Virus record (IMG/VR): IMGVR_UViG_2529292728_000036
DNA length: 23,895 nucleotides
Direction: 5' to 3' (one strand)
DNA from: a virus
Taxonomy: Duplodnaviria > Heunggongvirae > Uroviricota > Caudoviricetes
In this document: positions 12,001-15,000 of the stretch, piece by piece
Layout of the letters: every line of letters begins with the position of its first letter
Position numbering within the stretch: the first letter of the stretch is position 1
Position numbers: made by a program

Positions 12001-15000
12001 GTTGTTGCTGATGGCATTCCTATGGGGGTGCTTAATGATGGAACCCCTTATCTAACTCTTTACGGTTTAGCCAAATTATGTGGCATAGATGAAGCACCTC
12101 TTCGAATGTTTACATCTAACTGGGAGACTGAAAAAAATAAGCCAAGAGGACAAAAAGTAGCTGCATACTTAGCTGAGAAAGGATTTAACAACGTTGACCG
12201 ACTGTATACCCGCGTCATAAATAGCTCAAACGTTGAAACACATGCTTATCCTGACTATGTTTGTATGGCTGTTCTTAGGTACTATGCCCTCGATGCCACA
12301 AATTTTGATAGATCCGTTGCAATAGGAAACTTTGTTCGCTTAGCTGAATACACGCTCAAGCGAATGATCTATGAAAAAGCAAACTATAACCCCAACGCTG
12401 CCATAGACGTTTCATTCGAAAACTATAGAGCTCGTATAAAGCTAAACAACCAAATACCAACAACTCATTTTGCTGTATTCAGAGAAATAGCAGATATTGC
12501 AATGACGTTAATAGGAAATGGCTTTCCTATGGATGATACCACGTCACTAGACGGAAGCGTTGGAAATCACTGGGGAAAGTATTGGACAAAAAACAACCTT
12601 TCCGAGAGATTTGGTGATAGAGTTCAATATCAACACATTTTCCCTGAAAACTACAGGCAATCTGCAGCCAACAAGTACATAAAAGCCTGGATTTACCCTA
12701 TCGAATCATTGGGGCTATTCAGGAAATGGCTTCACGATAACTATGCCATGGAAAAACTACCCAAATATCTTGGAAACAAAAAAATCAGTAACATAACTGA
12801 ACTATTGGAAGCCGTCAAAAAACCAGCATTACCAAACCAGTGATAAAATTATTTACGCTACAGCAACCCGGACTCTGCGCCGGGTTTTCTTTGCCTCACG
12901 TTCGCCCACCTAAAAAACATAACCAATTGTATTTATTGATGTAACTCGCTAAACCATGCAGTTATGATCCCTGCCGCATAACCTTCATCAGCCACATTTT
13001 CAAAAATAAATTTCCTTATATATCAGAATCATACTTCGTAGAGTTAATAAATCACCAAAATTCGTACCAATAGTTCTTGATAATGTCGAACTATTGGTTC
13101 ATTATTATCGTCGTCAGCAGGACGCATTACTCACCAGGGCGGTGAATATACAACGATTCGAATATGAATCTACGGCGCTGACAAAGCGCAATAACCAAAG
13201 TGAACTTTGGGGTGTGGTGAAGGGTTCATGGACGGGAATATGTCGCACGTAAAGCGGCGAGGCCTGCGGGACTATTGCCGAATTGAAGTAGGCCGAAACA
13301 GGTCGAAATGGGTCTCCCACCTACCACACCACCAAAGTTCATCAGGAGGTCTATATGACACGCAGAACTCAGTTCAAAGGCAATTCACGTTCTCGTCGTC
13401 GTGAGCGTTTAAAGGCAAAGGCATTAGCTAACGGCGTACTGGCCCGCGAAGAAGCAATAAGTTCAGAAGTATTACACCGCCCTACTCTAAGCAGAGCGCA
13501 GATTCAGGCTAAAGGTACTCACGAAACGCCTGAGCGCATAGAAGACGCTAAGCCAATTAAGTTCATGGCACAGGACGTGATCTGGCAACAGAAAGAATAC
13601 AGACGCAATCTGGAGCGAGCGGCCATTGTGTACGCGAATGAGTTTGGACATAAGCAACCAGAAACTGGTGTATGTCTTCCAAACGTAGCCATTTACGCGG
13701 CAGGCTACCGGAAATCAAAACAACTGACGGCGAGGTGACTTGTGTTGGTCGCCAGAAAATGAAATTAGGCAGCAAACCACTTATTTGAGGTGAGATATGA
13801 CAAAATCATGGAGCGTACCTTTTCCTGAATCAGAAACTGAACATGATGGAATGCCTGTTTTCTGGAGATTCCAGGCGACAGTTGAAGAAGATGGGATAAA
13901 AATATTCGCACTTCAATATATAGCTTTTCATCAGACAGAGCATTATGCATGGTTGAACCGCCCCGGAAATCCTGGAGACTAAACTCCCTGAGAAAGAGGT
14001 AAACAGGATGACTAAAAATACTCGTTTTTCCCCCGAGGTCCGTCAACGGGCAGTTCGTATGGTTCTGGAAAGTCAGGGCGAATATGACTCACAATGGGCG
14101 GCAATTTGTTCCATTGCCCCAAAGATTGGCTGTACACCAGAGACTCTGCGTGTGTGGGTTCGTCAGCATGAGCGGGATACCGGGAGTGGTGATGGTGGAC
14201 TCACCACCGCTGAACGTCAGCGTCTGAAAGAGCTGGAACGTGAAAATCGTGAACTGCGCCGCAGTAACGATATCCTTAGCCAGGCTTCCGCTTATTTTGC
14301 GAAGGCGGAGTTCGACCGCCTCTGGAAAAAATGATGCCACTGCTGGATAAGCTGCGTGAGCAGTACGGGGTCGGACCGGTATGCAGCGAACTGCATATTG
14401 CCCCGTCAACGTATTACCATTGTCAGCAACAGCGACATCATCCGGATAAACGCAGTGCCCGTGCGCAGCACGATGACTGGCTGAAGAAAGAGATACAGCG
14501 CGTATACGATGAAAATCACCAGGTATACGGTGTGCGTAAAGTCTGGCGTCAGTTGTTACGGGAAGGTATCAGAGTGGCCAGATGCACTGTGGCACGTCTC
14601 ATGGCAGTTATGGGACTTGCCGGTGTTCTCCGGGGTAAAAAGGTCCGTACTACCGTCAGCCGGAAAGCCGTTTCCGCAGGCGACCGCGTAAACCGTCAGT
14701 TCGTGGCAGAACGTCCTGACCAGCTGTGGGTGGCTGATTTTACTTACGTCAGCACATGGCAGGGCTTCGTCTATGTGGCGTTCATCATTGATGTGTTTGC
14801 CGGATGTATCGTGGGGTGGCGAGTCTCATCGTCTATGGAAACGACATTCGTGCTGGATGCACTGGAGCAGGCGTTGTGGGCCCGTCGGCCGTCCGGCACA
14901 GTCCATCACAGTGATAAAGGTTCTCAGTATGTATCACTGGCCTACACGCAGCGGCTTAAGGAAGCCGGATTACTGGCATCAACAGGGAGTACTGGCGACT

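What the first reader, a model, noticed from the sequence alone, without database searches (positions are those of the whole stretch)
13066..13357. Unusual N leader: P22-type boxB without recognisable boxA, and a long-range stem ending 2 nt before the N Shine-Dalgarno
nutL boxB is exactly GCGCTGACAAAGCGC with no CGCTCTT-like boxA upstream, whereas the nutR candidate does have a boxA-like CGCTATTTT. Immediately after boxB, a 17-bp arm (13201..13218) pairs with one single-base bulge to 13324..13341, whose 3' end abuts the N RBS, enclosing about 105 nt. This could act like the RNase III-processed stem in the lambda N leader to gate N translation, and fits reports (recalled) that H-19B-type nut sites use alternative RNA structures with fewer host factors. 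pL is bracketed by an 11-bp perfect inverted repeat.
Basis: partly seen in the sequence, partly recalled or inferred. Interest (0 to 1): 0.45.

Follow-up and report, generated by a model that had tools for sequence, protein, structure and literature searches.

The report
Conserved processing stem in N leader
The long stem in front of this prophage's N gene is real and matches the hairpin that RNase III cuts in phage lambda, so the leader is ordinary for a lambda-like phage; the one new point is that related phages keep this stem while swapping the sequence inside it.

Summary
The long stem is a 20-bp helix with one bulged purine (13200-13219 with 13322-13342). It starts 10 nt after boxB and ends 1-2 nt before the N Shine-Dalgarno.

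It is not peculiar to this phage. Its arms are nearly identical to those of the lambda N-leader hairpin, which the literature describes as RNase III-cleaved. The same helix precedes N in lambda, P22, phi80, HK97, H-19B and Klebsiella and Enterobacter prophages.

Across 52 distinct arm pairs, 89% of cells pair, against about 40% when the 3' partners are slid. Fourteen of the 20 pairs show changes on both sides. G:U cells far outnumber A:C cells, which points to RNA from this strand.

The distances from boxB and to the Shine-Dalgarno are fixed, while the enclosed segment varies from 39 to 217 nt among more than 15 unrelated, reassorting types.

The nutL boxA is effectively absent. The annotated CGCATTACT is a shared 5'-leader segment. 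nutR is identical to that of H-19B.

Most likely function, inferred from lambda: the helix places nutL next to the N ribosome-binding site, and RNase III cuts it to control N translation. Verdict: a new member of a known kind, of modest interest.

The parts
13064..13101 (+). Operators OL2 (13064-13079) and OL1 (13086-13101). They contain the perfect 11-bp inverted repeat 13066-13076 / 13088-13098.
   Evidence: Inverted repeat. Operator positions transferred from the annotation of GQ499365, which is 100% identical over 13100-13360.
13077..13105 (+). pL promoter: -35 TTGATA 13077-13082, a 17-nt spacer, -10 CATTAT 13100-13105. The transcript start is about 13113.
   Evidence: Consensus scan. The start is placed by homology with the lambda pL +1 (AUCAGCAGG) and by the mEp234 annotation.
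13113..13144 (+). Conserved 5' leader GUCAGCAGGACGCAUUACU followed by hairpin CACC-AGGGC-GGUG (13132-13144). It includes the annotated 'boxA' CGCATTACT at 13123-13131.
   Evidence: Searches give the annotation. Searches show that lambda (+1..+33) and, for AUCAGCAGGACGC, P22 have the same segment upstream of their true boxA.
13155..13170 (+). nutL spacer hairpin GAUUC-GAAUAU-GAAUC, followed by UACG and boxB. This is the H-19B-type spacer dyad.
   Evidence: Identical in H-19B. The stem is kept and the loop varies in relatives, including Klebsiella. nutR has the same layout.
13175..13189 (+). nutL boxB, GCGCUGACAAAGCGC
   Evidence: Identical to the P22 nutL boxB.
13195..13210 (+). Possible competing local hairpin CCAAAG-UGAA-CUUUGG. 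It uses the lower 5' arm of the long helix.
   Evidence: Predicted at -5.3 kcal/mol. Counterparts exist in lambda (CAAAGC/GCUUUG), P22 (CCAAAC/GUUUGG, changed on both sides) and Klebsiella. Support is modest.
13200..13219 (+). 5' arm of the long-range helix, G-U rich and boxC-like: GUGAACUUUGGGGUGUGGUG.
13220..13321 (+). Enclosed interior, 'type A' module of 102 nt. It is interchangeable among phages.
   Evidence: 91-97% identical in phi80, CL707 and PA2, which have unrelated nutL and N. One compensatory pair was found inside it. It is not unusually stable, z = +0.3. There was no Rfam match.
13322..13342 (+). 3' arm of the long-range helix, UACCACACC-A-CCAAAGUUCAU, with the bulged A at 13331.
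   Evidence: The bulge is always a purine: A in 27 and G in 13 of 40 arm pairs.
13344..13738 (+). N Shine-Dalgarno AGGAGG (13344-13349) and the N coding sequence (13355-13738, 127 aa).
   Evidence: Pfam N_peptide PF25694, E = 2e-15. 124 of 127 residues identical to H-19B N.
10705..10750 (-). nutR: boxA-like CGCUAUUUU (10750-10742), spacer hairpin GGAC-AUUC-GUCC (10735-10724), boxB UCGCUGACAAAGCGA (10719-10705).
   Evidence: Identical to H-19B nutR.

Best explanation
The stem is this phage's copy of the helix that lambdoid phages carry between nutL and the N ribosome-binding site. In lambda this helix is the hairpin cleaved by RNase III.

Shown here: on the pL transcript, the G-U-rich strand just after boxB (13200-13219) pairs with the C-A-rich strand that ends 1-2 nt before the Shine-Dalgarno (13322-13342). 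A variable 102-nt segment is looped out.

Inferred from lambda:
- The helix brings the N-bound nutL, held on the elongating polymerase, next to the N ribosome-binding site, so that N can repress its own translation in cis.
- RNase III cuts the helix. By homology the cut would fall near G13210/G13211 and C13332/C13333. This separates nutL from the N message and restores translation, tying N supply to the cell's RNase III level.

nutL itself is of the H-19B type: a P22-like boxB, a structured spacer and no functional boxA.
For: Helix in this window:
- The arms are found by the repeat finder and appear in the minimum-free-energy fold.
- Pair probability is 1.00 for all 10 core pairs checked, both here and in lambda.

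Homology to lambda:
- The arm sequences are identical over 12 and 13 nt, and the bulged A is shared.
- Natural chimeras exist with lambda nutL and N around this window's interior.

Covariation:
- 40 arm pairs: 93.9% of cells paired against about 40% when slid; 12 of 20 pairs changed on both sides.
- 52 arm pairs from three N families, with anchors chosen without regard to complementarity: 89.1% paired against 39-44% slid; 14 of 20 pairs changed on both sides; score 0.434 against at most 0.146; 0 of 500 shuffles as high.
- Examples of the upper helix: GGUGUGGUG/CACCACACC, GAUGCGAUG/CAUCGCAUC, GAUUGGAUG/CAUCCAAUC, GAAAGCG/CGCUUUC, ACUGGCG/CGCCAGU.
- Even the core changes together: CUUUGA/UCAAAG.

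Strand: 76 G:U cells against 8 A:C cells.

Geometry: boxB to CUUUGG is 14-17 nt and CCAAAG to the Shine-Dalgarno is 6-8 nt, while the enclosed length ranges from 39 to 217 nt.

[quoted passage not shown] - N and Nus factors bound at nutL repress N translation, and the intervening RNA is highly structured (PMC5725501 citing Wilson 1997 and 2002).

nut sites: nutR is identical to H-19B and nutL differs by 1 nt.
Against: - No cleavage or expression data exist for this phage. RNase III susceptibility cannot be predicted from sequence.
- The Shine-Dalgarno itself is outside the helix, so direct occlusion is not evident.
- Some relatives have much shorter helices: about 13-15 bp in the Klebsiella prophages and an 11-bp hairpin in L147. 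These may be poor RNase III substrates.
- Repression by lambda N needs Nus factors acting at nutL. H-19B-type N is reported to need fewer host factors (recalled, and suggested by the paper's title), so autoregulation may differ.
- The lambda cleavage positions (about +88/89 and +196/197) are recalled, not verified. The primary papers were not available.
Confidence: 0.7

Rival explanations
1. The helix is mainly a processing platform. Its purpose would be to excise the enclosed RNA, by RNase III or, for tRNA-like inserts, by RNase P. The interchangeable interiors would then be functional small RNAs carried as cargo at the start of the pL operon. This reading is compatible with the main explanation.
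For: - More than 15 unrelated interiors sit in the same helix and reassort freely with N type, boxB type and immunity.
- Type A is 91-97% identical among phages whose nutL and N are unrelated.
- Two independent interiors are tRNA-like. L155: Rfam tRNA 39.6 bits, E = 3.5e-7. L312 type: called by ARAGORN, seen in 13 loci.
- The layout mirrors the rrn operon, where a nut-like site and boxC form the 5' strand of the RNase III leader-trailer helix around 16S rRNA (PMC10250234 and PMC8632103).
Against: - The interiors fold no better than shuffled sequence, with z between -0.9 and +1.1 for the larger types.
- Only one compensatory pair was found inside type A.
- No interior matches an Rfam family except the tRNA-like one.
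- Lengths down to about 20 nt, and a bare hairpin in L147, show that an interior is dispensable.
- A 2025 review of phage small RNAs reports none from this position.
Confidence: 0.15
2. The helix is part of the NUT signal itself: a boxC-like element, or an 'alternative NUT RNA structure'. It would help N act without boxA, NusB and S10.
For: - The 5' arm is the G-U-rich sequence at the position of boxC, directly after boxB. nut sites are described as boxA, boxB and boxC (PMC2724277 and PMC10250234).
- nutL here lacks a boxA.
Against: - nutR, which is identical to H-19B nutR and is used alone in published antitermination assays (PMC3526286), has no such downstream helix.
- The same helix occurs in lambda and P22, which have a good boxA, so it does not correlate with loss of boxA.
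- rrn boxB and boxC are not required for rrn antitermination (PMC2724277).
- The published H-19B structures lie in the spacer (recalled).
Confidence: 0.08
3. The helix acts alone as a fixed structural element at the ribosome-binding site, either as a translational brake or as a standby platform. Neither RNase III nor N would be involved.
For: - The helix ends 1-2 nt from the Shine-Dalgarno, and CCAAAG keeps a fixed distance of 17-19 nt to the AUG.
- In the predicted fold, part of the Shine-Dalgarno/AUG region pairs with the 5' end of the transcript.
Against: - In lambda the homologous helix is an RNase III site that affects N synthesis.
- The predicted pairing between the 5' end and the ribosome-binding site is only 4+4 bp. 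It is not conserved in lambda.
Confidence: 0.05
4. The arms are a DNA-level feature or a chance repeat. They could be the terminal inverted repeats of a small inserted element, or linker sequences for recombination between modules, with no RNA function.
For: - The first BLAST pattern looked like an insertion or deletion bounded exactly by the arms.
- The mosaic joints do fall at the arms.
Against: - Compensatory changes keep the pairing across unrelated arm sequences.
- There are 76 G:U cells against 8 A:C cells, so pairing is selected in the sense-strand RNA and not in DNA.
- No leader with an empty site and no target-site duplication was seen. Every N leader examined has the helix.
Confidence: 0.02

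Closest known systems
Phage lambda N-leader hairpin cleaved by RNase III (Kameyama 1991; Wilson 1997, 2002, as cited in PMC4419217 and PMC5725501)
   Same: - Same position, between nutL boxB and the N ribosome-binding site.
- Same arm sequences: CUUUGGGGUGUG and CACACCACCAAAG.
- Same bulged A.
- Pair probability of 1.00 in both leaders.
- The interiors are naturally exchanged between the two contexts.
   Different: - The enclosed segment is unrelated: type A of 102 nt here, against about 88 nt in lambda.
- The linkers are shorter: 10 nt from boxB to the helix and 1-2 nt from the helix to the Shine-Dalgarno, against about 17 and 7-8 nt in lambda.
- nutL here has no boxA.
- Cleavage and regulation have not been tested for this phage.
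H-19B nut sites (Neely & Friedman 2000, Mol Microbiol 38:1074; not readable here)
   Same: - nutR is identical.
- nutL differs by one base.
- N is 124 of 127 residues identical.
- The spacer hairpins are identical.
- PMC3526286 describes two hairpins in H-19B nutR.
   Different: - H-19B carries a different interior (type B, 84 nt between CUUUGG and CCAAAG) and a different upper helix, GGUGAAUGCAG/CUGUAUUCACC.
- The published 'alternative structures' are the spacer hairpins, not the long helix (recalled).
rrn operon leader-trailer helix with boxC (RNase III site flanking 16S rRNA)
   Same: A nut-like site is followed by a G-U-rich strand (rrn boxC UCUGUGUGGG; GGGGUGUGGUG here). That strand forms the 5' side of a long helix with a distant downstream strand (PMC10250234 and PMC8632103).
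   Different: - rrn encloses 1.5 kb of rRNA; here 39-217 nt of variable sequence are enclosed.
[quoted passage not shown]
- This is a functional analogy only. No sequence homology was tested beyond the G-U-rich motif.
P22 nutL and gene 24 leader
   Same: - Identical boxB.
- A related arginine-rich motif in N: GNAKTRRHERRRKLA in P22, GNSRSRRRERLKAKA here.
- The same helix with a bulged A before the gene.
   Different: - P22 has a consensus boxA, CGCTCTTTAA, 10 nt before boxB.
- This window has the GAUUC hairpin spacer there instead.

Membership tests
Lambda-type N-leader RNase III helix | Lies on the pL transcript between nutL boxB and the N Shine-Dalgarno | tested here: met
   boxB ends at 13189, the helix is 13200-13219 / 13322-13342, and the Shine-Dalgarno is at 13344.
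Lambda-type N-leader RNase III helix | Long double-stranded helix of about two turns, formed by distant segments | tested here: met
   20 bp with one bulge. It is present in the minimum-free-energy fold and has pair probability 1.00 for the 10 core pairs checked.
Lambda-type N-leader RNase III helix | Arms homologous to those of lambda | tested here: met
   12 and 13 consecutive identical bases and the same bulged A. Natural chimeras exist.
Lambda-type N-leader RNase III helix | Pairing maintained in evolution | tested here: met
   89-94% of cells paired against about 40% when slid; 12-14 of 20 pairs changed on both sides.
Lambda-type N-leader RNase III helix | Cleaved by RNase III in vivo | not testable with these tools
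   Needs end mapping in rnc+ and rnc- hosts.
Lambda-type N-leader RNase III helix | Modulates N translation, through relief of N/nutL-mediated repression | not testable with these tools
   Known for lambda only (PMC4419217 and PMC5725501).
nut site (boxA-spacer-boxB) | boxB hairpin recognised by the arginine-rich motif of the cognate N | tested here: met
   boxB is identical to P22 nutL boxB. The N arginine-rich motif is related to that of P22 gp24. The gene is Pfam N_peptide.
nut site (boxA-spacer-boxB) | boxA close to CGCUCUU(U)A a few nucleotides upstream of boxB | tested here: not met
   For nutL the best candidate, CGCATTACT, matches 4 of 8 positions and lies 43 nt upstream. It aligns with a leader segment that lambda and P22 have in addition to their real boxA. 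For nutR, CGCTATTTT matches 6 of 8.
H-19B-type nut site | Dyad symmetry (a hairpin) in the spacer directly before boxB | tested here: met
   GAUUC..GAAUC at 13155-13170 and GGAC..GUCC at 10735-10724. Both are identical to H-19B.
H-19B-type nut site | N action independent of boxA, NusB and S10 | not testable with these tools
   Recalled from Neely & Friedman 2000. Only the title could be verified.
Small mobile element with terminal inverted repeats (considered) | Empty sites and target-site duplications; arms needed only at the DNA level | tested here: not met
   No empty site was found among more than 140 distinct leaders. G:U cells (76) far outnumber A:C cells (8), and the arms covary.

The most novel reading that the evidence does not exclude
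The nutL-proximal helix may be a universal cassette holder of lambdoid phages. It is a fixed clamp: CUUUGG-GRUG...CAYC-R-CCAAAG, with fixed distances to boxB and to the Shine-Dalgarno. Inside it, unrelated RNA modules of 39-217 nt are exchanged by recombination. Two independent modules are tRNA-like. The modules would be released by RNase III, or by RNase P for the tRNA-like ones, as stable RNAs with functions of their own.

The upper helix plus the conserved 'purine-CCA' may descend from a tRNA acceptor end. In the L312-type element, the acceptor (C)GGUGUG/CACACC-A-CCA is almost the lambda/933W helix sequence.
Probability: 0.2. Interest if true: 0.6.

Novelty: new member of a known kind. Interest (0 to 1): 0.3.

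Why it matters
N is the first switch of lytic development in Stx phages, and the amount of N sets how far early transcription proceeds. If the helix works as in lambda, N supply in 933W/H-19B-type phages is tied to the host's RNase III level and to N autoregulation. That is relevant to induction and toxin release.

The comparative result also gives a clean, testable rule. The clamp and its distances to boxB and to the ribosome-binding site are conserved, and the enclosed sequence is free. This supports the idea that the helix exists to bring nutL and the ribosome-binding site together. It also shows that the 'boxA' annotated in the 933W-type nutL records is probably not a boxA.

Tried and rejected
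1. Mobile element. The first BLAST pattern suggested a mobile or insertion-deletion element bounded by the arms. This was rejected: every leader has the helix, there are no empty sites, the arms covary and the G:U asymmetry points to RNA.
2. Known anti-sRNA. I checked whether the interior could be a phage-encoded anti-sRNA such as AgvB or AsxR. Those lie at the pR' moron site, not in the N leader (PMC4104026). The Pas sRNA preprint and a 2025 review mention nothing at this position.
3. Rfam. No family matches the leader or 11 other interior types, except tRNA for L155.
4. Coding interior. The ORF starting at ATG 13231 runs out of frame into N. It is cut short in phi80 (a stop after 19 codons) and frameshifted by the 10-nt deletion in phi419, so it is not conserved.
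5. Unusually stable interior. It is not.
6. Primary papers. Neely & Friedman 2000, Plunkett 1999, Wilson 1997 and 2002, and the Court 2013 review are not held. Statements about them are marked as recalled or rest on citing papers.
7. The genome-contig scan returned only 4 loci, 3 of them usable.
8. The PDB sequence search with N gave nothing meaningful.
9. A predicted 4+4-bp pairing between the transcript's 5' end and the Shine-Dalgarno/AUG region was not pursued. It is short and is not conserved in lambda.
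Full report
**Context**

The + strand of the window is the early-left (pL) operon of a 933W/H-19B-type Stx prophage.
- Window 12867-13760 is 99.8% identical to phage 933W.
- cI is at 11064-11771, a 300-aa gene at 11941-12843, and a terminator at 12865-12886, which is tM in the 933W record.
- Then come OL/pL, nutL and N (13355-13738; Pfam N_peptide). An IS629-type insertion sequence follows from about 14008.
- N is 124 of 127 residues identical to H-19B N. 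nutR is identical to H-19B nutR and nutL differs by one base. Published work on H-19B nut sites therefore applies directly.

**Observation check**

- The long-range arms are found independently by the repeat finder and appear in the minimum-free-energy fold (-92 kcal/mol, z = -3.74).
- The 10 core pairs checked have ensemble probability 1.00.
- The full helix is 13200-13219 / 13322-13342: 20 bp, one bulged A at 13331, 102 nt enclosed.
- It begins 10 nt after boxB (13175-13189) and ends 1-2 nt before AGGAGG (13344-13349).
- The 11-bp inverted repeat at pL corresponds to the two repressor operators OL2 and OL1. This follows from annotation transfer from a record that is 100% identical over 13100-13360. 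The repeat brackets the -35 hexamer, not the whole promoter.

**What the stem is**

Aligning N leaders shows that lambda has the same helix.
- Lambda reads GGCUUUGGGGUGUGUG...CACACACC-A-CCAAAGCU. This window reads GAACUUUGGGGUGUGGUG...CACCACACC-A-CCAAAGUUC. The position is the same, between nutL and the N ribosome-binding site.
- That position matches the stem-loop in the lambda N 5' UTR that RNase III is reported to cleave (PMC4419217 citing Kameyama 1991). PMC5725501, citing Wilson 2002, calls this region 'highly structured'.
- My recollection is that the cuts fall at about +88/89 and +196/197. That would be at the junction of the lower and upper helix, opposite the bulge. I could not verify this.
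- The helix is also present in H-19B, HK97, phi80, P22, CL707, mEp234, Salmonella P22-like phages, and Enterobacter and Klebsiella prophages.

**Covariation**

I collected leaders in ways that do not depend on the helix:
- by N protein;
- by the nutL spacer hairpin;
- by a genome scan.

I then built gap-free pseudo-alignments of the two arms.
- With 40 distinct arm pairs, 93.9% of cells pair against about 40% when the 3' partner is slid by 1-3 columns. Twelve of 20 pairs change on both sides.
- For the second set, the anchors were chosen without looking at complementarity. The 5' anchor was the first YUWUGR-like hexamer after boxB. The 3' anchor was the last YYAAAG 15-30 nt before the N AUG. 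All 52 arm pairs from the 933W-, lambda- and P22-type N families were kept, including 8 in a different register.
- That set gives 89.1% paired against 39-44% slid, 14 of 20 pairs changed on both sides, 152 such cells, and a score of 0.434 against at most 0.146. None of 500 shuffles was as high.
- The upper helix is completely rewritten in different lineages: GGUGUGGUG/CACCACACC, GAUGCGAUG/CAUCGCAUC, GAUUGGAUG/CAUCCAAUC, GAAAGCG/CGCUUUC, ACUGGCG/CGCCAGU, GGUGAAUGCAG/CUGUAUUCACC.
- Even the nearly invariant core changes on both sides in one lambda-N lineage, CUUUGA/UCAAAG.
- G:U cells (76) far outnumber A:C cells (8). The pairing is therefore selected in RNA of this strand, not in DNA or in an antisense transcript.
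- The bulge is always a purine.

**Conserved geometry, free interior**

Among leaders anchored on the nutL spacer:
- boxB to CUUUGG is 14-17 nt;
- CCAAAG to the Shine-Dalgarno is 6-8 nt;
- CCAAAG to the AUG is 17-19 nt;
- the distance between the arms ranges from 39 to 217 nt.

There are more than 15 unrelated interior types, and they reassort freely.
- This window's type A occurs with 933W-type N, lambda N (CL707, L272, L299) and phi80 N. It also occurs in PA2, which has no N at that place.
- The 217-nt type occurs with both 933W-type and lambda-type N (L105, L274).
- H-19B itself has type B.
- The interiors fold no better than shuffled sequence. Type A shows only one compensatory pair. No interior matches an Rfam family apart from a tRNA-like one.

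A clamp at fixed distances from boxB and from the ribosome-binding site, around a free loop, is what one expects if the helix serves to bring nutL and the ribosome-binding site together, to act as a cleavage site between them, or both.

**Mechanism**

Shown:
- the helix exists and has been maintained in evolution;
- it is homologous to lambda's;
- its spacing is constant.

Inferred from lambda:
- N and Nus factors bound at nutL repress N translation although nutL is about 200 nt away. The structured intervening RNA is thought to compact the loop (PMC5725501).
- RNase III cleavage of the hairpin raises N translation (PMC4419217).

Here the linkers are even shorter than in lambda: 10 and 1-2 nt, against about 17 and 7-8 nt. 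The layout also parallels rrn operons. There a nut-like site is followed by G-U-rich boxC, which is the 5' strand of the RNase III leader-trailer helix. The antitermination complex is proposed to hold that strand at the RNA exit channel until its partner emerges (PMC10250234 and PMC8632103). The same 'delivery' could operate on the N leader; this is inference.

An additional, modestly supported feature is a local hairpin that competes for the lower 5' arm.
- Here it is CCAAAG-UGAA-CUUUGG, 13195-13210.
- Lambda has CAAAGC-AGAAG-GCUUUG. P22 has CCAAAC...GUUUGG, changed on both sides relative to 933W. Klebsiella has CCAUGGCGC-AGU-GCGCUUUGG.
- It could be a co-transcriptional intermediate. After cleavage it could instead be a protective 3'-terminal hairpin on the nutL fragment. 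Both ideas are speculation.

**boxA**
- The sequence annotated as nutL boxA in the 933W and mEp234 records, CGCATTACT at 13123-13131, matches lambda boxA at only 4 of 8 positions. It lies 43 nt from boxB.
- It is part of a 5' leader segment, AUCAGCAGGACGCAYUR... followed by the CACC-loop-GGUG hairpin. Lambda has this segment upstream of its real boxA. P22 shares AUCAGCAGGACGC.
- P22 has the identical boxB and a consensus boxA, CGCTCTTTAA, 10 nt before it. The 933W/H-19B family has the hairpin GAUUC-N6-GAAUC-UACG in that place instead.
The database annotation is doubtful.
- This fits the reported reduced host-factor requirement of H-19B N. The title is cited in PMC3202840; the details are recalled.
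- The 'alternative NUT RNA structures' of that paper are the spacer hairpins, not the long helix. PMC3526286 mentions two hairpins in H-19B nutR.

**Rivals**
- A mobile element or recombination linker at the DNA level is excluded by the covariation and the strand asymmetry.
- A role of the helix in antitermination itself is unlikely. nutR lacks it, and it also occurs in phages with a good boxA.
- A cargo-release role for the interiors is not excluded but has little support.
- A purely structural effect on the ribosome-binding site is possible but conflicts with the lambda precedent.

**Novelty and verdict**

The stem belongs to a known kind of element, and the nut features match what is published for H-19B. 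I found no annotation or paper that describes the helix for 933W/H-19B-type phages, the breadth of its conservation, or the interchangeable interiors. However, the key older papers could not be read, and earlier comparisons of lambda, 21 and P22 may have noted it. I rate it a new member of a known kind, interest 0.3.

The most novel reading still open is the cassette-holder idea with tRNA-like inserts (probability about 0.2).

Noticed in passing
L155 1552-1678 (-); also L197 and L208: In some phages of the 933W-type N family, the segment enclosed by the conserved N-leader helix is a tRNA-like element. Acceptor, D and T arms match Rfam tRNA (39.6 bits, gathering score 29, E = 3.5e-7), but the anticodon arm is replaced by about 70 nt. 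ARAGORN finds it only with its intron option. Its acceptor stem stacks directly on the conserved helix.
   Followed up: partly
L312 392-473 (+); 11 variants in 13 loci of the P22 gp24 family: This is a second, unrelated tRNA-like insert in the same helix. ARAGORN calls it tRNA-Pro(ggg), with a C1xA72 mismatch and a weak anticodon stem; Rfam gives no hit. Its acceptor end, (C)GGUGUG/CACACC-A-CCA, is almost the sequence of the lambda/933W upper helix plus the bulged A and CCA.
   Followed up: partly
L005 (phage PA2) 1201-1576: PA2-type Stx phages keep a phi80-like nutL and the helix with the type A interior. Where N would follow, they carry isrK (Rfam 58.7 bits) and a C4 antisense RNA (77.1 bits) instead.
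   Followed up: no
window 11941-12843 (+): The 300-aa gene between cI and the tM terminator is a BstA abortive-infection homologue (PHROG 6287, E = 2e-131; PADLOC BstA, E = 4e-106). This is the position of rexAB in lambda and of stk in 933W. The top-ranked phage-collection hits to a 2.2-kb query spanning this stretch all begin downstream of it.
   Followed up: partly
window 13797-15221 (+): An IS629-type (IS3 family) element sits just downstream of N. Its ALIL frameshift pseudoknot is at 14289-14405 (121.5 bits). It appears to truncate the gene that follows N: 61 aa here, matching the first third of a 156-position PHROG family.
   Followed up: no
L147 (IMG/VR contig): One leader has a small hydrophobic ORF (MFEVICNPILGSMIFTFAICFGFTIWSEVSDWMWDRKNK) inserted between nutL and a minimal form of the helix. 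That minimal form is an 11-bp hairpin, UUUGGUGGUGG-loop-CCACCACCAAA, with no interior and no bulge.
   Followed up: no
L013 (phage phi419) and L061: phi419 has a 10-nt deletion (GCCGAAACAG) inside the type A interior, between short direct repeats. L061, a metagenome contig, shows two leader copies in tandem: type E plus the first 12 nt of N, joined to the 3' part of boxB and then type A. This could be a recombinant or an assembly chimera.
   Followed up: no
window 13094-13252 and 13207-13404 (+): Some GenBank records annotate hypothetical proteins across nutL and the leader, for example in PhiR12_2 and phi419. These ORFs overlap the RNA elements and are not conserved among relatives, so they are probably spurious.
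   Followed up: partly
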